The notes: generated by a model from the sequence alone, not told the origin. A DNA stretch of 64,000 nt from Zootoca vivipara (GCF_963506605.1 NC_083294.1:31186001-31250000); one strand, 5' to 3'; positions 7,760 to 46,948 are shown, numbered from the stretch's first letter. Made by a program: numbers and translations.

Positions 7760-11616
<3,857 letters not shown>

Positions 11617-16550: not shown

Positions 16551-17188
16551 TCATAAACTTTGGCCATATTGCTCCTCTGCTTTCTCTGTCCCCTCTTTGT
16601 GGGTATCCTCGGAGTCTAAAAGGGGCTGGTGAAGACAGGACTGATGCTTGCCCCCCTTTCTCCAAGAAGCTGCTCGCACATTTGTTTGGTTATCCTTCAG
16701 GAAAAGAGGCAGCAGGTCTGCAGTGAAGGGGATGTCTCTGAAAGCATGCAGTAGGAAGATGCCAAGGACAATGGTGAGGAAGCCACTGATGGTGCCAATG
16801 ATGTGCATCAGAACCAGATGCTGCCACTCCTTGAACAGAATGGCAGAGCAAGTCATAACTGCTGTGGTGAAGAGGACGTAATAGATGGGGGTGACTACAG
16901 ATGTGTTGAAGATATCCAACGCCTTGTTCAGGTAGTTGATCTGGACGCTGATGGAGATCACAAGGCAAATAAAAAGCAAATAGCTCAACGGTTCCTTCCA
17001 GACAGGCTTCCCAGCAAACAGTTCTTTCAGGGCAATACCCAAGCCTTTCGCAGATGAGACAGAGAGCGAACCAATGGCAGAGCAGATCAAAACATACACT
17101 AAGACGTTGCTATGTCCATAGCGAGGCCCAGCCACAAAGATGAGAAGAGCTGAACTCACCAGCATGCACACAGCAAACACTATAAACC
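16551..17188 (-). CDS. NIPA2-like last coding exon
   Basis: Multi-TM segment to the stop at 16551 (track ORF 16551..17222). Confidence 0.93.
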
Positions 17189-18678
17189 CTGTAGAGGAGA
17201 GAGGAAAAATTGTTAAGGACAATCTGAATCTTTTAGGTGTAGCTTACTTCTGCAGGATGTAGACAGTTTTGTTCAGATCAATCAGTGCACAAGCTACATT
17301 CAGTTAGTAGAATCTGGTGCTTTAGAATTCTTATCTCACTGGTATGGTTCAAAGCCAACTAAATATCATCAGTGGCCGAATAAAGAGAATAAAATAGATG
17401 CTATAAAAATTATGCGCTCACAGGTTACTGATTATCAACATGAGTTTTCATTCAATGAAATTAAGGAAAGCACTCAATTTCTGTCAAGTCCCCCTTCCCC
17501 AAAATGGTATTCTGTTGGTGTACAATAGGTAAATGAAGTTGGGCAGTTAATACCTGGATCCTTTAGTTTCTCCGCCATTGACTCCAGGCTGGAGACCTCT
17601 TCCTCCTGTGGGGCATGGATGACCATCACAGTGGAGCCTAAAATGCTAAGGATACAGCCGATCTTCCCATGGATGTTTAGGTGCTCGTTCAGGAAGTAGG
17701 AGGCTAAAACTGCACTATAAGAAGATACAACTGTGTTGAGGAAAGACCTGAGACTGGCATGTTGGTCTCCAGAAAAGGGCTTAGGGATTGGGAAACATCT
17801 GATCATGTGCTTACCTGACTAAAACACTTAGTGCTCCTAGAGGAGTGACCAGTGTTGCTGGGGCAAAAGCATATGCAGCAAAGTTGGCAACTTCTCCAAT
17901 TCCCACTGCAAGTGAAGCAGTTTGCCATTGGCAAAAAAATAATGTTAACAAAGAGCAAATTTCATCTCCTTTGAAACAGATTCACACCTGACTACACCCT
18001 CATGGTGGGTAAGAAAATCAGGTGACTAGCAGAAGTCTTCTAAATTCAACATTATCCCCTCCACCTCCTGTCAGTAATCTACAAATGACCAAGTTATTAG
18101 GCAGGCTAGTAATGATTTTAAATGATGATGATGTGCACCATCCATTTGTAGATGCCCCAGCCACTCTGGTTTAATTTGCAAGGCTGCTTTATGATAAAGC
18201 TCATTATACCAAGGAACTCATTGGGAGCTACTGGAGGTCATGTAAGAAGGCAAAGGGAATAATTAAAGTTGTTGAAATGTAGATGAAGATGGTAAAACCT
18301 TGCATGGAAGTACTTACTAGTTAGCAGCCCTGCCCACCACATCCATTCCTTCAGATATGCATGACCCCCTAGACCTGTGAAGAGAGAAACGAAACCAAAG
18401 GTGAAGTTTAAATGAAAACAGAAGCTGGCCTGGAAAACCTTTTCAAACTCTTAAGCAGCATGGAGAGCCTGGTTTCTGGGATTTTTCCCATCCACAACAG
18501 ATGGCATGGTAACTGTGAGCTCCTATTCAATATTATTACCTGCTCTGAGAGCACCTCTGCTACTTAGCTTGAGAAGTCCCTTCTTCTTTAGGATAAAACT
18601 TCCTCCAATGAACAGGCTAGAGCTGAGAGCCAGGCCCAGTCCGATGTAGAAGTCGTAACGTCCCATTGAGTCCTCCAT
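16551..18678 (-). CDS. Magnesium transporter NIPA2-like (361 aa), spliced: 18678-18540, 18374-18318, 17905-17815, 17714-17554, 17188-16551
   Basis: The protein reads [109 protein letters not shown]../[34 protein letters not shown]. Exon sizes 139/57/91/161 and their phases are as in NIPA2. The frame is intact. Confidence 0.95.
17554..17714 (-). CDS. NIPA2-like coding exon 4
   Basis: 161 bp, [31 protein letters not shown]. Confidence 0.92.
17815..17905 (-). CDS. NIPA2-like coding exon 3
   Basis: 91 bp, [25 protein letters not shown]. Confidence 0.92.
18318..18374 (-). CDS. NIPA2-like coding exon 2
   Basis: 57 bp, [15 protein letters not shown], ag/gtaagt. Confidence 0.92.
18540..18678 (-). 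CDS. NIPA2-like coding exon 1
   Basis: ATG at 18678; ends GCAG|gtaat. Confidence 0.9.
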
Positions 18679-19728: not shown

Positions 19729-20469
19729 GAGGAATTAAAGAACCTTTTAATGAGGGTGAAAGAGGAGAGCGCAAAATATGGTCTGAAGCTCAACATCAAA
19801 AAAACTAAGATCATGGCCACTGGTCCCATCACCTCCTGGCAAATAGAAGGGGAAGAAATGGAGGCAGTGAGAGATTTTACTTTCTTGGGCTCCTTGATTA
19901 CTGCAGATGGTGACAGCAGTCACGAAATTAAAAGACGCCTGCTTCTTGGGAGAAAAGCAATGACAAACCTAGACAGCATCTTAAAAAGCAGAGACATCAC
20001 CTTGCCGACAAAGGTCCGTATAGTTAAAGCTATGGTTTTCCCAGTAGTGATGTATGGAAGTGAGAGCTGGACCATAAAGAAGGCTGATCACCAAAGAATT
20101 GATGCTTTTGAATTATGGTGCTGGAAGAGACTCTTGAGAGTCCCATGGACTGCAAGAAGATCAAACCTATCCATTCTTAAGGAAATCAGCCGAGTGCTCA
20201 CTGGAAGGACAGATCCTGAAGCTGAGGCTCCAATACTTTGGCCACCTCATGAGAAGAGAAGACTCCCTGGAAAAGACCCTGATGTTGGGAAAGATGGAGG
20301 GCACAAGGAGAAGGGGACGACAGAGGACGAGATGGTTGGACAGTGTTCTCGAAGCTACGAACATGAGTCTGACCAAACTGCGGGAGGCAGTGCAAGACAG
20401 GAATGCCTGGCGTGCTCTGGTCCATGGGGTCACGAAGAGTCGGACACGACTAAACGACTAAACAACAAC
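19729..20469 (+). mobile_element. BovB LINE 3' fragment in the probable 5' intron of the NIPA2-like gene
   Basis: GLKLNIKKTKIMA..MVFPVVMYGSESWTIKKA; tail ACGACTAAACAACAAC; flanking direct repeat. Confidence 0.95.
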
Positions 20470-20689
20470 ACACGCGCGCGCCAACCACAAACCACCAAGG
20501 TAACATAAAACATTAAAGGAGCTTACTACTTTGGGCGGAAAAGCAGTCACGCCCCTGCTGTTTCCCCAGCCAAGTAACACCCGTCCCTAATTTTTTTTTG
20601 GGGGGGGGGAAATTACAGGTAAAGTAAGATTGTAAGGGACCAAGGCCACTCCGGATTTATTAATCTGGATTTTTGAAAGGAAGCTTTCC

Positions 20690-35429: not shown

Positions 35430-35525
35430 ATGGAGGAAACGTATCTGCTTAACGTGGAAGGAGTCAAGAAAAAGATTTTACATGGCGGCCACGGTCCGTT
35501 GCCAGATTTCAAAGATGGGAGCAAG
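35430..35525 (+). CDS. AIPL1-like exon 1
   Basis: Kozak gccATGG; [15 protein letters not shown]; AAG|gtaaat. Confidence 0.92.
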
Positions 35526-38500
35526 GTAAATGGCTGCAAGCATAGAAACCATTAGAAATGTGTAAATAGGATCATAGGAAGATGTCTTACACCATGCAAA
35601 CTCGTCTCATCTAGCTCATGGTTGTTGATATACTGAGTTGCAATGGCTCTCCCAAGGTTTTGGACAGGAGACTTTCAATCCCAGCTAGAGGTGCTGGGTA
35701 CTTAAATAGGGACCTTTTGCATGCAAGCATGCCCTCTGCCCCTGAGCTAGAGCTCTCCAGCAGTTATTGGCAATTATGTCTAAATTGAACCTCCATGTTT
35801 GGAGGCAGTATAGCCTGAATTTGAGTGGCTGGGATCGGCAGCATGGAAGAGCAATTGCTTTCATGTTCTGCTTATGGGCTTCCTGGATGCATGTTGCTGG
35901 CCACTGTTGGAAATGGGTGCTGGACTAGGTGGGCCTTTGATCTGATTCAGGTAATTGATTCTTGGGTAATTAGGTAAAAAGATGGGCAGCAGAAGGGTTG
36001 ACCTGGAACACACCTCTTGATTCCTCTGCCTTCTGTCTCTTCTGACTAGTGGCTTTAGCTGTTTTTCTGTTACAGAGGTAAAGCACATAGTAATAAGACA
36101 GTGAATCCTTTCAGTTGCATAATATGTCTAACACGTATAGAGCCTTGGAGGCTAAGCGCTGTGTCAGGTTCTAGCCCTATTCAGAGTAGTCCCATTGAAA
36201 TTAAATGGCCTATTCTTGGTAGGACTAGCAGCCCTACATATTTAAGTTTCTGTCCTACCTTTCAGTTATGTGCTTTCAGAATTATGACGCTCATTTGCTA
36301 TTAGTTAAAGGACAATAATTCCCACATCGGAAGAGGAAACTAAGCAGGCTCCCATTCAATGGAGGGAGGCAATAAATAATTGCCCCAGAACATTGTGGAA
36401 GGCAAAGCAAAGGTGGTTCTGAACTTCCAGGGGTTTAGATTTGAGCTGACTAGAGCCCTAACCATTACTGTATTAACTTTAGTTTGTCTTTGATCCAGAT
36501 CACATTCCACTTCCAAACGCTAAAAGACAACTTTGAGAGAACGGTTATAGATGACAGCCGGGGCCCTGGCATCCCCATGGAGATTATTGTGGGGAAGATG
36601 TTCAAAATTGAGGTGTGGGAGACCCTTCTAACTTCCATGCGGATCGGCGAGGTGGCAGAGTTCTGGTGTGATGCTATTGTGAGTGTGCAATTGTGTCAGG
36701 CATACCCTGAATGCATGAAATTGTCAAGTTCATGCCTACCCTAATTAGCAGAAAGTTATTTGCAATTGACTATCAAGCATCTGATACCCTTCAGATGCTG
36801 TTGAACTCCAACCCCCATATTCCCCAGCTAGCATGGCCAGTGACCGAGGAAAATGGGAGTTGTAGTCCAACATCTGGAGAACACCACAGTGGCTATCGTA
36901 AAATATGCTCACAACCTCCCATCATTTGACCCAGCTATCCAGATTCACTAAAATAGTTCCCCAGACTCCACCTTTTCAAAGTCTCTGGAACAGGCATCCC
37001 CAAACTTTGGCCCTCCAGATGTTTTGGGCTACAATTCCCATCTTCCCCGACCACTGGTCCTGTTAGCTAGGGATCGTGGGAGTTGTAGGCCAAAACATCT
37101 GGAGGGCCACAGTTTGGGGATGCCTGCTCTGGAACATAGGAAGCTCCCTTATACCGTGCCAAATTATTGGTTCATCTAACCCAATATGGTCTACATATCT
37201 CCAGGGAACAAAATGGTCTTCTCCATCACCAGCTACTTTATTATCTTAATTTGAAACCGAACCCTACCCTCAGCATGTAATGCAGGAACTCTACCACTGA
37301 GCTACATGCCTCATCAATCAATCTTCCTTTTATCAAGTGCCTCTTGCAATAGATTCTAGAGTAAAGCAGGGATGGAAAATTGCAAAGGGTTTTGGACTCG
37401 GGGGTGTGTGTGTGTGTGGATTCAAATACCTATTAACTTGCCTCTCGCCTTCAGGCCTTGGGCAAATTTCCGTTTCTTATTGTGAGTTGACTAAGGGCTA
37501 TTTCCAGGCCACCTGTTTACTGAACATCCATCCTGATTTGTTTCCAGGGAGATTAAATAGCCAACATTGTCTAATGAACATTTGTTCTGACTTGTTTGTG
37601 GGGAGGTTAGATGCTGCTGCATCAAAGCAAGTGTTATCCAGCACTTCCCTGTGCATCTTACCCTCACTTTCCTGAACCCAAAAAGTCTGTTCTTTTGGGG
37701 AGGAAGTGGCCTTGTTGTGCAAGACCTCTCTCCCCCACTCCCCAATCCATTATAGTTGCACAACCTGAATTTGCCAGTGACTTGATCCTGTCCCAAAATA
37801 GTGATAGTCTTGAAGTGTCCTAAGAGAATGCCAATGATCTAGCAGCCTAGCCTGACGCTTGGGAGTAGGATGGGCTATGCTGTGCCTTTTTATGCTAAGA
37901 TAATGCAGATCGTACACTAAGGAAAAAATACCACCTTCCCTCTTGGGCATCTGATTGTAGCACATCACATTCCCCATGCAAGGCCCTGTATGCTCTCTGC
38001 ACCAGTCTTATGGTTACCTCCTTCGCAATTTCAGCACACAGGAATGTACGCCTTAGTCTCCAAGGGCATGAGGAAAATTGCCGAGGGCAAGGACCCTCTG
38101 GAGGGCCAGAAGCATCGCTGTGGGATGGGCAACATGTTCGATTACCACACCACAGGCCACGCAGACCTGGATGAACTACAGCAGACGCCACAGCCCCTTA
38201 TTTTCATTATGGAGCTGTTCAAAGTGAGTGGGAGGATCAGAAGGAAACTACAGATCCGTTGTGTAACGCGCGGTTGCCACCATCTCCTCAACAGATGAGA
38301 TCAACTTCAAAGTCATAAATACTTTGTATTCCCCTGTCCTCCAAAGGGTGTCAATTGGTTTATCACACCCTCCCTCCATTTTATCCTCACAACCCCTGTG
38401 AAGTAGCCCGGGAGGCAGCAGCTGGCCAAGGACGTTCTGTGAACATCATGGCTGCATGGGGATTTGATGCTGTATTGTTTTAATATTAGATTGGGAGCCG

Positions 38501-38596: not shown

Positions 38597-41500
38597 TTAT
38601 TATTTATACCCCGCCCATCTGGCCGGGTCTCCCCAGCCACTCTGGGCGGCTTCCAACAGAAAAATAAAACACAATAATCTATTAAACATTAAAAGCCTCC
38701 CTGAACAGGGCTGCCTTCAGATGTCTCCTAAAAGTCTGGTAGTTGTTTTCCTTTTTGACATCTGTTGGGAGGGCGTTCCACAGGGCAGGCGCCACCACCG
38801 AGAAGGCCCTCTGCCTAGTTCCCTGCAACTTGGCTTCTCGTAGTGAGGGAACTGCCAGAAGGCCCTCGGTGCTGGACCTCAGTGTCCAGGCAGAATGATG
38901 GGGGTGGAGATGCTCCTTCAGGTATACTGGACCGAGGCCATTTAGGGCTTTAAAGGTCAGCACCAACACTTTGAATTGTGCTCGGAAACGTACTGGGAGC
39001 CAATGTAGATATTTCCCAGCCCACTGCTCCCCAGGCCTAATCCAGCATTCTGGCAACTACATGCCACTGACACGGCAGTCCGTGCCAATGAGTACCAGTT
39101 TGTGTCCAGCTGTGTCAGATGCAAAAGCTTTTTGTGGATTCTACCACCGCAGTTGGAGGGAAGAAGCATCTCTGCCCGAATAACCCTCTTCCCCCACCCC
39201 AAGGTCCTTGCACTTTGAAAACTGGCTTTCAAAGTGTCAGAGAAAAGGGTTCAACTTACCTCATCCCTGATGTGCTGTTTTGCTATTGTCAGCCTGCCTA
39301 TGCACAGCATACAGTTTCAGAAACCCTTGTCCAGGTGCTTCCACCGTCTGCTGTGAAATGGGTGGCGACTTAGTAAGAGGACCTTCTCTGCTGCAGCTCC
39401 CTCAGAAATCTTTGTACTAGGAGGTCCACAGGCAGATATTAGAGCTGTGAACATGCACTGGGAGCTGAGCCAATGGGGGTGCCGTCTCAAAGCTGGGTAA
39501 GCAAGGCACCGGGCTTTTGGGGAGGAGGTGTGAAGCTCTGGCAGGATCCTAGAGTCCTCTCACCTCCTTTCCAAAGCCTAGCTAGCAGTTCCCCAGTTTT
39601 CAGCACCAAAAGCAGATAGGGGCAGAACGGGGGAAAGCACGTGCCCTGGTACGGAACCCCTGTGTAAGTGGGGGTTCCCCTGCAATAACTGTGGTTTCCT
39701 CTCCTATCTAGGTAGAGGATCCCTCTTCCTACAAGCGGGATACGTGGGCCATGAACAACGAGGAGAAGCTGCTGGCTGTGCCGAAGCTGCACACGGAGGG
39801 CAACCGACTGGTCCTTTCCAGGAAATTCAAGGAAGCGGCAGAGAAATACCAGGAAGCTGTCATCTGCTTGCGCAATATCCAGGCCAAGGTAAGAGTTGGG
39901 TGGAGATAAAATTAAAAAAGTAATTGATTTAAAATATGCTGGCTCTAAACAGGCTGCCTGTCTCCATATTTGACTGCCTATAGAGTAGGACTTTCTGTTG
40001 TTACAAGCTAAGGCAAGTGGGGTAGTTGGCCAGGACAGGGTCTTCTCAGTGATGTCCCCTTCAATTATTCAATGCTCTCTCCAGAGAGGTCTGCTTGGTG
40101 TGTTTTTTGTCATCTTCTTGGCACCAGGTAAAGACCATTGCAGCAGCAGCAGCAACAACAACAAAATATCCCAGGCCTTTTAAACAAAATTTTAGCTCTG
40201 TTGATTGTTTCACATGGCTTTCAAGATCTTGCCGCCATTCAAATATTTGGGTTTATTTAGATATTTTTTTATTTGCATTATTCTTCTCTAAAAACTGTTT
40301 TGCACTTCTTTCTCATATGAATTGTTCCTATGATTTTTTTATTTAAAAATCAAAAAGTGGTATAAATACGCATAATCAGAGCCATGAAGCAAGGGGAAGA
40401 GCCCGTCTGAGGCAGCGAAAGTGCAGGAGGCAGTGCTCTACTTGATCTACTACTTCCACCACTGCCGGAGAGAGGGAAGCTTTGTAGCACACAGCGCTGC
40501 TCACCTTCCCTGCCGCTGGATAGAGGAGCTGAGTGTTAACACTTTGAGGACCACCCCAGCTCCCACTGAATTTGGTGAGAGCTGGGGCACGAAGGCGGCA
40601 GAAGTTGTTGGTCTCCAACTCCCATCAGCCCATGTCAGAATAGCCCTGTGGTGCAAGATGGTGGTGGAATTTGTAGTGCAACATCCCCTGGAGGGCCAGA
40701 GGTTCTTCCATCCCTACAATATATAATGAAGGTTTATGAATGTCCGGTGTTGGACTATGTTCTTGGACCACTCATTCCCCATGAAGGACTTACCATGTCT
40801 GATGTCTTGCCACCCCTAAAGCTAAGCTGTATTTCACCTGGCCGGTGTCTAGATCACCTGGGGATCCAATTTTTAAGCTATTCTGAGCTCTCTGTGAGAA
40901 AGAGGTGGATGCAAATAAATCATTTTGTTAATTAGCTAGGTGCTCTCTTTTGCCATAAACGAGTTTGTTGGCTTCCATGTCTCTGGTATATTCTGCCGTG
41001 TCCCACCCTGAACACTGGCTTCAATGCAGGGAGTCTCTGTCTCTTAGTGGACTATTCCAAACCTTACCTGGAGATGGTGGTGATGGAACCTGGGACCCAC
41101 ATGCGAAACCTGCAAAGCAGGTGCCTTTACCACTAAGCTACAACTCTTCTCCAAACCCACCATCTTGTTCTTTGTTGGCTTTTTCTACAGGAGAAGCCAT
41201 GGGATGAAGACTGGATGAAGCTGGAGAATCTCATTACACCTCTTGTGCTGAACTACTGCCAGTGCCAGCTGGAGTTGGGGGAGTATTATGAGGTGCTGGA
41301 GCACACAACCGACCTCCTGCAGAAGAACAACGGTGAGTGGTACCTCCAGCTTGCTACTTGCAGAACCCTCCTCTATCCTTTTCTGCATGTGCCAGGACCC
41401 TACACTGCATGATCATAGAGATGTGCTCCAGCATTCCTCCCGTTGTCCCGTTGTCCTGAGACTACACATCTCACATCACATACAATTTTATTGGCCACCC

Positions 41501-44500
41501 ATGAAGACATCAATGACCAATGCAATTACTTGGGCGGTTTGTTAAGACTGGGTGACTCTGAGCTCACACGCTTTGTTCCTTTACGTTATTTATGCTTCCA
41601 AAAAGAGCAAAGCAAACATTTGATACCAGTTTAGACACATCCAGTTGACATGCAATCACTGACCCACAGGTCCTTTTGGACCTAGAAGAAGGCAGAAGGG
41701 CGTGGAATGAGGGCGGAGTGGGGTGCACTTATGCTCGCCCTGCCAGTGTGTGCAGGGGCCGGGAACAGAACCCCTGTGCAAAATAGTCACTGTCTGTATC
41801 AATAGCCTGCTTTTGCAGCCTTAAGGTCTAGATTTATCATTATTACTACTATTAGTATTAATTAAAGTTGGGATTTTGAGAACACAGTGTTCTACACTAC
41901 TTACCAAATTATTCATGCATCGTAATTGTGAAACCACAAGGTTCAGCACTGGTTCCAGGTTTTGGGGTGCTGTTGGGCAACATGCCTTTGGTGGGCATGT
42001 CTCCTCCCTCCAGGAGTCCATCTCTTCCTTCCCACGATCACAAGTGTCACATGATCAGCACAGCAACAAGGCTCCCTAGCAGGAGTGGGGGAGCTCAGGC
42101 CTGGGGGCCAAATACAGCCGGATTCTTTGAAACTGAATGTAAACTCAGCTGAAGTCCTCCTCCCAATGTGCAGGAGGAGGAAAGTGGGAGCATGTGAGCC
42201 CAGTGCTGGATTCCAACTCCAATCAGCATGTTTAATGGCCAGGGAAGATGGGAGTTGTGGCCAGCAGCATTTGCAGCATCACAAGTTCTTTAGCCCCGGT
42301 TCAGCATTATGTGTGATCCTACCCCATTGTGTCTCAGGGAATAACTGAGGAGGAAACGTCAACAGTTGACTTTGGTTTTATTCACCCATCGTCCTCTGGC
42401 AATTTTACACAAAGCTACTGGTACCTCTGAGAGAGAGATTTATCCTGTATACACACCATACATTTAAAGCACACACCCCTGCAAATAATTCTTGTTAAGG
42501 ATGTTGTTAATTTTAGCTCTGTGTTATAAGAATTTTAAAAGGTCTCAAATATAGAATATTGCATGCCGAGGTCCCCAGGACACCCCCCAATAACTCACAC
42601 AGCACACAGAAATTAAAATTAAGGTTTTTGGCATTTTGGTCACAACTTTATTTAAATACAAAAATGTGAGTGGTTGCTTAGGTATTGGTTCCATACATAC
42701 ACATACACACATCTATCTATCTCTAAGACAGAACTAACTGACTTCCCCGCTTCCTGAAGTCAGTGCAGGGAAAGCATTTTGGGGAGAGAATGGAGCTGGA
42801 AGGCTGGCCCTTCGCCTCTCCACCAAATGCCCCCAGGGGCTCTTGCGTGGCCCTAGCCTCTTGTCGGGGTACGGGCTAAAGCATGTCGAGCCCCTGGATT
42901 CCTTTAACGGAATTCACCCTTGCAGCAGCAGCATTGGAGGAGCCGGCACAACCAACAACCAATTCTGGCCCCTCCACCAACCAACAGCATTGGAGGGACT
43001 GGCACAACCAATCATGATCCCTCCACCAACCAATTTATGAATCAATGCCTAACCGCCAACCTTACAAGTTGTGACTATTTGCTATGCAGTAGGCGAAAAC
43101 CAAGTGGCACCAGCCAATCAGCCAACCCCATGACAGGCACAGCAAGGTCAAACGCAACAGCCTAATTAAAGAGGAGGGTGGGTGGGTGATCCGAAGCTCG
43201 CAGCAAAGAGAAAGCCCAGGCTGTGAGCAAGGAATATAAAACCAGTGGGCTGTCCCCAAATTGCAACATCCAAATCTACCCCACAACAATAATCCACCAG
43301 TTGTAGCCCTGGTCATCTAGTCAACCCCACCCAACAGAAAGGGAGCGTGTCCTGTTAGCCCCCACGGCAACATGGGCTCTCCATGAAGGATAACCTGCTT
43401 TCATAAATGCACACATATCTAAATATATGAACCATGTGTCTGAAATAGCAATCCTGAAGCCATTTTCACTCTCCCAATGACTTCAGATATTCCTCTGCAG
43501 TAAGGGAGGCAAAGGGAGAAAAAGCCCTTCCCATTGTCTTTTTGCTTGCAAATCCTATCTTAAGGGTGCATTTGTGTATGAATAGGGTGAGTCTGTGACT
43601 TGGACTCAGGAACTAAAGTATTAACCATCACAAAAGAATGGCCAGGCTGCCCAGGTAATACAATCAGTGACCATTATAAGGTATTCGGTCAGGCAGGATT
43701 TCTGCTGTAGACTGCCTCCTGGCTCCTTCTGTGATGTATTTATGGTGTTTAGGGGTGGTGGCCTTGGGCTACAGGGTGGGCAATTTTAAAAGTCTACATA
43801 AGGCCTTGCTCACTATTGTTCAGGGTTCTCCTCCCTCTTGCGCGTGGTGAGTTGCAACAGTTCCGTGAATAAAGATCAGGCTTACTAGCCGCTTTACTTC
43901 TCAATATACTCTGCTATTTTCTCCTACTGATAGGGCTCTATACGGGCTCCGGAATACCCCATACGGGAAAGGGAGCAGTTTTTCTTATAACATCTGTAAG
44001 GGGTGAGCAACAATTCCCAGTTTTCTTTGGTGGGAGGAACTGCGCTTTAAATGAATGTGGTGTACACAGTCATTGTGTGACCCGAGTGGGCTGACTTCAG
44101 TCTCATGTGGTCCACTCAGATGACAACATAAGAAACACCCTATCCTTACATGGTCCAGGAATGCAGAATACTGAGAGCGGTGGCTTTTAACATATAACTC
44201 TATAATTTATAAGATTTGTTTATGAGAGCTAGCAAACCAACTGACTTTGTTCTTTTGCTAGAAAATGTCAAGGCTTATTTCAAACGGGCTAAAGCCCACG
44301 CTGCTGTCTGGAATGAAAAGGAGGCCCGAACAGACTTTTTGAGGGTGGCCCACCTGGATCCATCGCTGACTGCTGCTGTGAGGAAAGAATTGAAGCTCTT
44401 GGGGGAGAGGATGAGGAAGAAGCACGTGGAAGACCGCAAGAAGTACAAAGATCTCTTCCAGCAGCCTCCTCCTAAAGGAGAAACTGAGGGGAGAGCAATG

Positions 44501-46006
44501 GAGGAGACAGAAAAGCTGTTGGATTCTAGCCTCGGCCCACAAACAGAGGAAAAGAATCAAGAAACCCTGAACCCTGAGAGAGGAAGAGAAGAAGGGAGAT
44601 GGATGGGTGCAAAGACTGAAGAAACAGAGCAAGGGAAGTTAGCAGAGAAAGAGGAAGGACTCCTAATGAAGACAGGCGAAATGGACAAAGAGGACATCAC
44701 CCCTCAGAAAGTGAGGGAAGAGGAAATGGAAAATAAAGATAAAGGAATGATGGAGAGTCATTCTGGAGATGACCTGACAGGGTGTGAAACATCTGGAAGC
44801 AAGAAACGGTTAGAATTTGGGCAGTGGAAGCTTGAAGAACAGAGGGGGAAAGTGGAAGAGATTAATTCTGGGGCTTGGGATCAAAACAGAAAAGTGGATT
44901 TTCCAGTGCTGGAAGAAAAGGATGCAGAAAGAAGAGCCGTCCCTGGGAGCCCTGGGAAGGAATTAGGGGGAGTTGCAGGAAACCATGTGAACAGCAGCGT
45001 AGGGGAAGGGTTCATTAAAAGACCTTGTGAGACTGGAGTGGGCACTGGAGCAGAGAACTTCACAAGAGAGACGGAAGGATATGAGGCAAGTTGTGGGAAA
45101 CAAGAAGCCCAAACTCTTAAATTGTCAAGGGTACAGGGTGATAAGGGCTTTGGAGCAGAGGATCCCAAGGATGGGATTATAGTGGAGAGCCCTCAGGAAA
45201 GTAGTGAAAAAGGTGACTTCCAAATCCTTCCGGAAGGATCAAAGACAGAAGCAAGTGTGGCAACAGAAGCGAGGGAAAAGGTCAGTTCTGACTGGGAAAA
45301 CTGTGGTGGGCCAAGAAAGGAGAATTCTACTGGAGTGGAGGAGGAACTTAAAGGAGAAACAAAATTGGGAGAGAAAAGAAGAGAAGATAATGATAATTTC
45401 ATTCCAGAAGAGGAGACATGTTGCTGTGAAGCAGGCCCAGAGCATTGTGAGGGAGAGGCCGACCCAGAAGACTTAAAAAAAGTAGCAACTGATTATGTGA
45501 AAATAACATTAGATGTTAGGGCCAAGGAAGTGATAAGCCTTGAATCAGAGCATGCCAGCGAAGAGGGGGGTGGCCACAGAGAGGTAGCTGGATGTAGAGA
45601 GGAAGGAACTGAATTTGGTGACAGATCTAGGCTGTGCAAAGATGCACAAGGAGATGAGGTAGACCAAGAATGGTTCAAGGCAGAAATAAGCTTCAAAGCT
45701 GATGATCTGGAGATGGGAACGAGAGGGGAGGATTCTGAAACAGAGCAAGCAGATCTGCAAGTTAGGGGGGAAGAGCCAGAAGTGAAAACAGGCAGGGAAG
45801 CAGAAATGATTGTGGGGCAAGAATCTCTATGGGGCCATGGTGAGGTGTCAAGAAAGGAGGATGGAGATACAGAAGATATTTCATTGGCCACCCACTGCAG
45901 AGGAGACAAAAGCGAAGTGCTGGAGTTGACTGGATCTGGAGCAATGGGTGAGCTGAACATTTCTACCCTGAGACAACGCAACCTGATGAAAGAGGAAACC
46001 CAGTGA
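35430..46006 (+). CDS. AIPL1-like FKBP-TPR co-chaperone with long acidic C-terminal tail (842 aa), spliced: 35430-35525, 36499-36678, 38035-38223, 39712-39888, 41191-41332, 44262-46006
   Basis: The protein reads [20 protein letters not shown]../[71 protein letters not shown]/..[37 protein letters not shown]/..[15 protein letters not shown]. Exon sizes 96/180/189/177/142 equal those of AIPL1, and all junctions are GT-AG. Confidence 0.93.
36499..36678 (+). CDS. AIPL1-like exon 2 (FKBP domain)
   Basis: 180 bp, [14 protein letters not shown]. Confidence 0.94.
36991..37126. mobile_element. hAT MITE (136 bp), inverted relative to the 34518 copy
   Basis: Same TIR; 8-bp TSD CTCTGGAA. Confidence 0.88.
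38035..38223 (+). CDS. AIPL1-like exon 3
   Basis: 189 bp, [17 protein letters not shown]. Confidence 0.94.
38544..38598. repeat. (AAT)n microsatellite
   Basis: Seen directly. Confidence 0.95.
38598..39020 (-). mobile_element. L2/CR1-group LINE 3' fragment
   Basis: ORF end [52 protein letters not shown] and (AAT)n tail; related tails at ~56895, ~61020, ~63510. Confidence 0.85.
39712..39888 (+). CDS. AIPL1-like exon 4 (TPR1)
   Basis: 177 bp, [32 protein letters not shown]. Confidence 0.94.
41191..41332 (+). CDS. AIPL1-like exon 5 (TPR2)
   Basis: 142 bp, [23 protein letters not shown]. Confidence 0.94.
42522..43992. mobile_element. LTR-like insertion (composite) with 4-bp TSD
   Basis: Termini TGTTATAAGAA...TTCTTATAACA, TSD TCTG on both sides; it splits a MITE (42448-42521 / 43993-44067). 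Confidence 0.8.
44262..46006 (+). CDS. AIPL1-like exon 6 (TPR3 plus Glu-rich extension)
   Basis: ctag|AAAATGTCAAGGCT; open frame of 1745 nt to TGA; AATAAA at ~46538 and ~46717. Confidence 0.85.
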
Positions 46007-46242: not shown

Positions 46243-46948
46243 GTCTGTGATGATATTGGGGAGCAGAGTCAGAGTGAAAGTGTGCTAGCTAATAATCTTT
46301 GACGTGGCTAGCTCATCTTGTTGAGAACAGGCAACTCAGGGTCTGGTGCAGTAATCAAAGGCTCAAGGAGGGAGCTGCCATTGCATCTACACCTAGGAAA
46401 ACAAGCATGCTTGCCCCTTCTTGGGTCTGCTGGTATTCTTTTCAGTTTCCTTCCTTAATTGAAGAATTGTCTGCAAAAAAAGTACTATACAGGGTCATCT
46501 TGCCATCCTCATCCAGCTACTGCACATGTACGCAGAAAATAAACCTCCTCCTTGCAACCACAGGCAAAGTCTAAAATTTCAGATGGAAGCTAGAGATGGG
46601 TTATGATTTCCATTCCCCTGCCCCAAAGATTCTTTGCAGATTTATTTTTAAAATTGTATTGTGCTATAGCTGTACAGTGCCTAGAGAACTAATTAATGAG
46701 GCTTCCAATGAATAGAAATAAAGCTGAAGGTGTTTTGAGAAAGGGACTGGTGCTCATGGTGGTGTTGATTATTCTTGCTGTTGCCCTGGCAAACAGGTTT
46801 TGCATTTGGTCAGAGAAGATATGGTCAGAGGGTATTTAAAAATGCATGAAGACCTGACTGCAAGGTTAAGGAGCTGCAGGACACTGCTGCTCAGTGTCAT
46901 CTGCTTACCCTCATCCCGTAAGTATTGTACAGTATATGGCATCTCCTA

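What the first reader, a model, noticed from the sequence alone, without database searches (positions are those of the whole stretch)
44262..46006. AIPL-family chaperone with an ~510-aa Glu-rich tail fused after the TPR domain
Seen: exon 6 encodes TPR3 and the terminal helix (..[14 protein letters not shown]), then the frame stays open for ~1.55 kb of purine-rich sequence. This adds a low-complexity E/G/K-rich region (roughly a fifth Glu by eye), giving 842 aa in total. Known: AIP and non-primate AIPL1 end at about 330 aa, and primate AIPL1 adds only a short Pro-rich tail. AIPL1 is the HSP90 co-chaperone for photoreceptor PDE6. Long acidic disordered tails recur in photoreceptor proteins (RPGR-ORF15, CNGB1/GARP, RP1L1), and GARP2 binds PDE6. 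Inference: this may be a reptile AIPL paralog with its own acidic disordered module, possibly a PDE6 tether or glutamylation substrate. I know of no description of it.
Basis: partly seen in the sequence, partly recalled or inferred. Interest (0 to 1): 0.75.

Follow-up and report, generated by a model that had tools for sequence, protein, structure and literature searches.

The report
Long acidic tail of AIPL-2 chaperone
This lizard gene is the known second copy (AIPL-2) of a vision-enzyme helper protein, and its 515-residue acidic tail is real, spliced into the message and shared in kind with birds, turtles, salamanders and coelacanth; the tail is predicted to be floppy and likely only tunes the helper, while ray-finned fish carry a second binding domain at the same spot.

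Summary
In detail: six exons encode 842 aa, a 327-aa FKBP-TPR core plus a 515-aa tail (18.4% Glu, net charge -57). One spliced RNA-type contig of a related organism runs from exon 1 through the whole tail. The gene is not a reptile novelty. It is AIPL-2, the known duplicate at the BTK-DRP2 locus (zebrafish aipl1b/gosh), and the only AIPL-type gene found in this genome. The tail is old. In a core-only search, 53 of 78 lobe-finned/tetrapod proteins have tails of 140 aa or more, 51 of them acidic, yet tails align only within squamates. Neutral drift would have filled the tail with stops and erased its charge, so frame and charge are selected, not sequence. Tests for an RPGR-type glutamylation module or a GARP-like tether failed. 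Best reading: a disordered polyanion that works like the primate AIPL1 PRD and tunes, rather than drives, PDE6 maturation. Unexpected extra: all 42 ray-finned orthologs in that search carry a second TPR domain behind a shorter acidic linker.

The parts
35430..35525 (+). AIPL-2 coding exon 1 (ATG; start of FKBP-like domain)
   Evidence: spliced contig X11 record 9
36499..36678 (+). exon 2, FKBP-like domain (PF23322)
38035..38223 (+). exon 3, FKBP insert region
39712..39888 (+). exon 4, first TPR motif
41191..41332 (+). exon 5, second TPR motif
   Evidence: exon 5-6 junction in X1 and X11
44262..44458 (+). exon 6, core part: third TPR motif and terminal helix H7, with K265, R270, W278
44459..46006 (+). 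exon 6, 515-codon acidic tail (predicted disordered) and stop codon
46007..46745 (+). likely 3' UTR with AATAAA at 46538 and 46717
   Evidence: contigs of four runs stop at 46618-46743, a weak hint only

Best explanation
The gene is AIPL-2, whose conserved FKBP-TPR core likely does the HSP90-dependent maturation of photoreceptor PDE6, and whose 515-aa tail is a translated, predicted-disordered polyanion that likely acts through its charge and length, not through a motif, as a non-essential tuner of that core. Shown here: gene structure, splicing, orthology, conservation of the core, presence of the tail across lobe-finned vertebrates, and selection on open frame and negative charge with little constraint on sequence. 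Taken from orthologs: cone and pineal expression and the need for PDE6C stability (zebrafish), prenyl pocket and HSP90/P-gamma binding to the TPR groove (mammalian AIPL1). Inferred: the tail works like the primate PRD. It would keep the co-chaperone and its immature client soluble and would weakly screen the basic TPR groove, shifting the HSP90 versus P-gamma exchange.
For: Core 86-93% identical among 11 squamates while tails are 29-55%; 21 of 27 pocket and TPR positions listed for human AIPL1 are identical and the 6 changes are hydrophobic swaps. Tree places the window protein in the AIPL-2 clade (94/96), apart from AIPL1 and AIP. Three exon searches find only this locus and AIP; two P-gamma-family loci are present. 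Tail pLDDT below 50 and no helix or strand after H7; FoldIndex -0.22. 19 of 22 named squamate rows have tails of 290-687 aa; the 16 analysed have net charge per residue -0.07 to -0.18. A neutral simulation to 41-50% identity gives about 16 stops, 0 of 1000 frames open for 290 codons, and charge near zero. Against X11, 18 of 23 listed tail changes are non-synonymous (pN/pS 0.91, 44459-45020 only), listed coding insertions total +6 and +3, and a +1 insertion lies just after the stop. Tails of 34 non-squamate proteins do not align to the lizard tail (z -1.8 to 4.2; squamates 9-68). The human PRD sits at the same place, is acidic and disordered, and was reported to add holdase activity and lower HSP90 affinity (review PMC12733016).
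Against: No experiment on any AIPL-2 tail was found. The PRD analogy is itself contested: PRD deletion did not change HSP90 binding or PDE6 activity in cells (PMC7567831). The tail is about ten times longer than the PRD and not Pro-rich (3.5% Pro). 25 of 78 lobe-finned/tetrapod models have tails under 140 aa; many look like truncated gene models, but the lungfish protein has only 53 aa and the echidna model is not acidic overall. The tissue of the RNA contigs is unknown. pN/pS rests on 23 changes from one contig.
Confidence: 0.45

Rival explanations
1. Tolerated appendage: the tail does nothing for the chaperone. It persists because early stops would lengthen the 3' UTR and destabilise the mRNA, or because only soluble acidic chains are tolerated behind helix H7.
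For: pN/pS near 0.9; length varies from about 150 to 690 aa and C-terminal ends differ; lungfish tail 53 aa; the human PRD was dispensable in cells.
Against: Frame and charge are kept where neutral drift would lose both; ray-finned fish keep a still more acidic linker at the same position (median 77 aa, charge -0.19 per residue).
Confidence: 0.25
2. Electrostatic P-gamma carrier: the polyanionic tail captures the basic segment of P-gamma and delivers it to the TPR groove and to maturing PDE6, like acidic disordered chaperones of basic proteins (recalled analogy).
For: Both P-gamma loci of this genome encode a Lys/Arg-rich segment; P-gamma binds the AIPL1 TPR and a PRD deletion may alter that binding; charge is the conserved property.
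Against: No binding data; charge density is modest (-0.11 per residue) and 14% of tail residues are basic; mammalian AIPL1 matures PDE6C without such a tail (PMC11725853, species of AIPL1 not seen in the passages).
Confidence: 0.17
3. One reading: a GARP-like PDE6 tether or an RPGR-ORF15-like glutamylation substrate.
For: Glu-rich, purine-rich terminal exon in a photoreceptor gene family. Some bird tails reach 28-32% Glu; Glu runs of 8-9 occur in 7 of 82 long tails.
Against: RPGR needs a conserved aromatic C-terminal helix in its basic domain for TTLL5 targeting (PMC13052805). Here no helix is predicted, the best 30-aa window in the last 100 aa has net charge 0, only 6 of 82 long tails reach +5, and C-termini are not conserved. 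Longest Glu run 3; EG/GE pairs 3.7%. No Pfam family or Atlas hit for the tail.
Confidence: 0.08
4. Artefact or recent read-through into a 3' UTR, or a decayed second TPR domain.
For: The tail has no folded domain; fish orthologs carry a second TPR at this position.
Against: Spliced contigs span the tail; tails align across lizards, snakes and geckos; no lobe-finned tail shows a TPR remnant (0 of 78); both fish TPR copies group together against lobe-finned TPRs and outgroups (100/99), so the duplication is likely later than the split.
Confidence: 0.03

Closest known systems
AIPL-2 / zebrafish Aipl1b (aipl2, gosh), cone PDE6C co-chaperone (PMC5381001; preprint 10.1101/2022.07.13.499904)
   Same: Same clade, same BTK-DRP2 neighbourhood, 327-aa core, 85% identical to chicken XP_001233085 and 65-70% to four ray-finned orthologs; an acidic segment directly after helix H7.
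   Different: Ray-finned orthologs have a short acidic linker, then a second TPR domain and a less charged tail; the lizard has one TPR domain and a 515-aa acidic chain. [quoted passage not shown] The zebrafish protein itself was not among my hits.
Primate AIPL1 with its proline-rich domain (PRD)
   Same: Acidic, disordered, fast-changing extension behind helix H7 of an AIPL core.
   Different: Different paralog; 56 aa against 515 aa; XXPP repeats against 3.5% Pro; likely an independent origin.
RPGR-ORF15
   Same: Purine-rich terminal exon coding a long Glu-rich chain in a photoreceptor gene.
   Different: No Glu-Gly repeats and no conserved basic or helical C-terminal module.
GARP1/GARP2 (CNGB1 locus; features recalled, not looked up)
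   Same: Acidic disordered chain in a PDE6-related protein.
   Different: No repeats or conserved motif; fused to a chaperone; no Pfam match.

Membership tests
AIP/AIPL co-chaperones | N-terminal FKBP-like domain with insert (PF23322) | tested here: met
   exon 2 over the Pfam cut-off; full domain in the python ortholog
AIP/AIPL co-chaperones | three-motif TPR domain with HSP90-clamp residues and helix H7 | tested here: met
   K265, R270, W278, C239, E245 identical; N186, N235; helices predicted
AIPL (not AIP) | groups with AIPL1, starts collinear with AIPL1, prenyl-pocket residues kept | tested here: met
   AIPL branch 100/99; bird ortholog scores 458 bits to AIPL1 against 414 to AIP; pocket residues
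AIPL-2 clade | clade with chicken XP_001233085 and fish/coelacanth proteins named AIPL2 | tested here: met
   94/96 support, just under the starred threshold; 32 rows
AIPL-2 clade | locus between BTK and DRP2 | tested here: met
   tyrosine-kinase and Tim10/DDP exons by Pfam; the names BTK, TIMM8A, TAF7-like and DRP2 were read by eye from translations, Pfam gave no hit on the TAF7-like and DRP2 stretches
AIPL-2 clade | cone and pineal expression; needed for PDE6C stability | not testable with these tools
   shown for zebrafish only; tissue of the runs unknown
Primate PRD | Pro-rich XXPP repeats | tested here: not met
   3.5% Pro, no repeats
Primate PRD | acidic, disordered, directly after H7 | tested here: met
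   (disorder predicted)
RPGR-ORF15-type TTLL5 substrate | repetitive Glu-Gly tract | tested here: not met
   longest Glu run 3, EG/GE 3.7%
RPGR-ORF15-type TTLL5 substrate | conserved C-terminal basic domain with aromatic helix | tested here: not met
RPGR-ORF15-type TTLL5 substrate | glutamylation in vivo | not testable with these tools
   needs antibody or mass spectrometry
GARP proteins | conserved short repeats (recalled) | tested here: not met
GARP proteins | binding to mature PDE6 in outer segments (recalled) | not testable with these tools
   needs biochemistry

The most novel reading that the evidence does not exclude
AIPL-2 is a cone-type PDE6 chaperone with its own overlooked C-terminal working module, built in two ways: a long polyanion in lobe-finned vertebrates, and an acidic linker plus a second TPR with a re-tuned clamp (N186, N235, K265, R270 kept; K269 to Q, W278 to C) in ray-finned fish. 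Either lets it hold P-gamma while HSP90 occupies the first TPR, a step that is mutually exclusive in mammalian AIPL1.
Probability: 0.2. Interest if true: 0.7.

Novelty: new variant of a known kind. Interest (0 to 1): 0.45.

Why it matters
In birds and reptiles this protein appears to be the only AIPL, so it would serve all their photoreceptor PDE6, yet it is annotated as 'AIPL1', 'uncharacterized', 'golgin-like' or 'myb-like'. The role of the human AIPL1 PRD is unresolved and one PRD deletion is linked to dominant cone-rod dystrophy. A likely independent, much larger acidic tail gives a natural series for testing what such tails do. The second TPR in fish matters for zebrafish gosh, a standard model of AIPL1 disease, whose protein likely differs in architecture from human AIPL1.

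Tried and rejected
No run on record as RNA was listed among the holders; the holders laid are contigs guessed to be RNA, and their spliced form is what counts. Raw RNA runs X19 and X20 (tissue unknown, about 6% read) had no reads on exon 5 or the exon 6 core and under 1x on one short tail stretch; no evidence either way. Pfam and the ESM Atlas gave nothing for the tail. Transposon origin: the tail DNA has one match in the genome. An EEVD-like self-decoy end: 1 of 82 long tails; CaaX: 0 of 82; SxIP: 0 of 16 squamate tails. Internal AATAAA/ATTAAA at 44732 and 45014 are crossed by contigs, which cannot show ends. Tail as a decayed TPR: rejected. The first set of tails was found with an acidic query and the 120 of 120 two-TPR count with a two-TPR query, so both are biased, 78 used a core-only query, though two-TPR proteins still gain score there. 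No shark, gar, bowfin, caecilian or zebrafish AIPL-2 was listed in the three searches (120 rows shown of 188, 456 and 654). The journal version of the phylogeny paper is not held. No complex prediction or fold search was run. Earlier scan notes were unrelated.

Full report
Observation. Exon 6 begins at 44262 and stays open to the stop at 46004-46006. Joining six GT..AG-bounded exons gives 842 aa: a 327-aa core ending KDLF at 44458 and a 515-aa tail with 18.4% Glu, 11.7% Gly, 8.0% Lys, 6.2% Asp and net charge -57. The other plus frames hold 29 and 41 stops and the chance of an open frame is about 1e-12 or less. The tail is single-copy and not repetitive.

Transcription. Of four contig runs laid, X11 has one 3343-nt contig that covers exons 1-4 and exon 6 to 46089; one search adds exon 5 and the exon 5-6 junction, which X1 also shows. 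Long contigs of X1, X5 and X9 also begin at the acceptor and cover most or all of the tail. In X11 the listed coding insertions total +6 and +3, and a +1 insertion lies 8 bases after the stop (22 further indel rows were not shown). The tissue is unknown.

Identity of the gene. The window holds tyrosine-kinase exons, a Tim10/DDP gene and a NIPA gene by Pfam, and TAF7-like and DRP2-like exons read by eye. A preprint (10.1101/2022.07.13.499904; passages; supplements not seen) defines an AIPL-2 clade between BTK and DRP2 that holds all its bird, reptile and platypus AIPL homologs. My tree of 32 cores puts the window protein among squamates inside a clade with chicken XP_001233085, coelacanth and fish AIPL2 (94/96), sister to AIPL1, with the only other paralog of this genome in AIP. 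Searches with exons 2, 3 and 6 each found only these two loci; such searches score few candidates, so loss of AIPL1 is likely, not proven. Zebrafish aipl1b is expressed in cones and pineal photoreceptors and is needed for Pde6c protein (PMC5381001; passages and parts 2-3 of 6). 21 of 27 pocket and TPR positions given for human AIPL1 in a review (PMC12733016; passages, section 2.4 and part of the references) are identical in the lizard.

Spread of the tail. One search listed 120 of 188 hits. Of 22 named squamate rows, 19 have tails of 290-687 aa; two Pseudonaja models have 58 aa and a partial gecko model 106 aa. Of 112 non-ray-finned rows, 82 have tails of 140 aa or more and 79 of these are acidic. 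Because that query was acidic, I repeated the count with a core-only coelacanth query (120 of 654 listed): 53 of 78 lobe-finned/tetrapod rows have long tails, 51 of them acidic, and 25 are short, including lungfish with 53 aa. For 50 chosen proteins, the lizard tail aligned with all 16 squamate tails (z 9-68) and with none of 34 others convincingly (z -1.8 to 4.2). Cores are 86-93% and tails 29-55% identical among 11 squamates; the alignment shows no conserved block in the tail. AlphaFold gives pLDDT below 50 and no secondary structure beyond helix H7.

Selection. In the first 562 tail bases, 18 of 23 differences to X11 change the residue (pN/pS 0.91). Neutral simulation to 41-50% identity gives about 16 stops, no frame open for 290 codons in 1000 runs, and charge near zero (substitutions only). 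Frame and acidity are therefore maintained while the sequence drifts.

Unexpected result. Ray-finned AIPL-2 proteins carry a second TPR domain in the extension: 42 of 42 in the core-only search against 0 of 78 lobe-finned/tetrapod rows, and 120 of 120 in a search biased towards them. One shorter fish model with a single TPR was also seen (P0128), from a genus whose longer model has two (P0317). The linker has a median of 77 aa and a charge of -0.19 per residue; the second TPR keeps N186, N235, K265 and R270 but mostly has Q for K269 and C for W278. A tree of 34 TPR domains separates both fish copies from lobe-finned TPRs, AIPL1 and AIP (100/99), so the duplication likely happened in the ray-finned stem and the lizard tail is not a decayed TPR. 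In cyprinids the second TPR begins near residue 402-406, so the zebrafish Q413 stop likely falls at its start. That mutant loses its mRNA and does not test the extension.

Mechanism. The core likely works as mammalian AIPL1 does: the FKBP pocket and TPR groove engage PDE6, HSP90 and P-gamma, the last two competing for the groove. The tail most likely acts as a charge- and length-defined disordered chain, like the primate PRD, which was reported to add holdase activity and lower HSP90 affinity (Li et al. 2013, seen only as cited) but was dispensable in cell assays (PMC7567831; passages). I give this 0.45, a tolerated appendage 0.25, an electrostatic P-gamma carrier 0.17, tether or glutamylation 0.08 and artefact 0.03. 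RPGR glutamylation needs a conserved C-terminal aromatic helix (PMC13052805; passages); nothing like it is present.

Novelty. The gene is known, and the long proteins stand in public annotations under unhelpful names. [quoted passage not shown] I did not see that figure, subscription papers or supplements, any of which may show more. PMC11725853 (passages) added nothing on the tail. Verdict: a real feature, a new variant of a known kind, interest 0.45.

Noticed in passing
ray-finned orthologs P0023, P0024, P0044, P0078, P0299-P0410, P0412: AIPL-2 of ray-finned fish has a duplicated TPR domain with an altered clamp behind an acidic linker; not described in the papers read.
   Followed up: yes
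P0089, P0109, P0418 (Pleurodeles, Lissotriton, Ambystoma): Salamanders keep AIPL-2 with acidic tails of about 150 aa (two of the three placed in the tree), although the preprint and the review say amphibians lost it.
   Followed up: partly
P0259 (Electrophorus, 441 aa): A fish AIPL1-clade protein with its own acidic Pro/Glu tail of about 110 aa, so acidic tails likely arose several times in AIPL proteins.
   Followed up: partly
P0060: A UniRef entry labelled giant panda groups with python AIPL-2 (100/99); likely mislabelled or a contaminant.
   Followed up: partly
G000 C1:83749862-83753051: The only other family member found in this genome is AIP; no AIPL1 was found in three exon searches.
   Followed up: yes
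P0040 (chicken XP_001233085): The 'chick AIPL1' used in the zebrafish paper's tree belongs to the AIPL-2 clade.
   Followed up: yes
window 16551-17243 (-): A NIPA-type magnesium transporter gene lies between the TIMM8A-like and TAF7-like genes.
   Followed up: no
window 8941-9933 (-) and 19729-20508 (+): Broken LINE-type reverse transcriptase fragments, recognised by eye.
   Followed up: no
G000 C10:39506096-39508667 and C2:98440268-98443646: Two PDE6-gamma-family loci are present.
   Followed up: partly
P0413 (sea turtle): This turtle tail is built of tandem acidic repeats, unlike the non-repetitive lizard tail.
   Followed up: no
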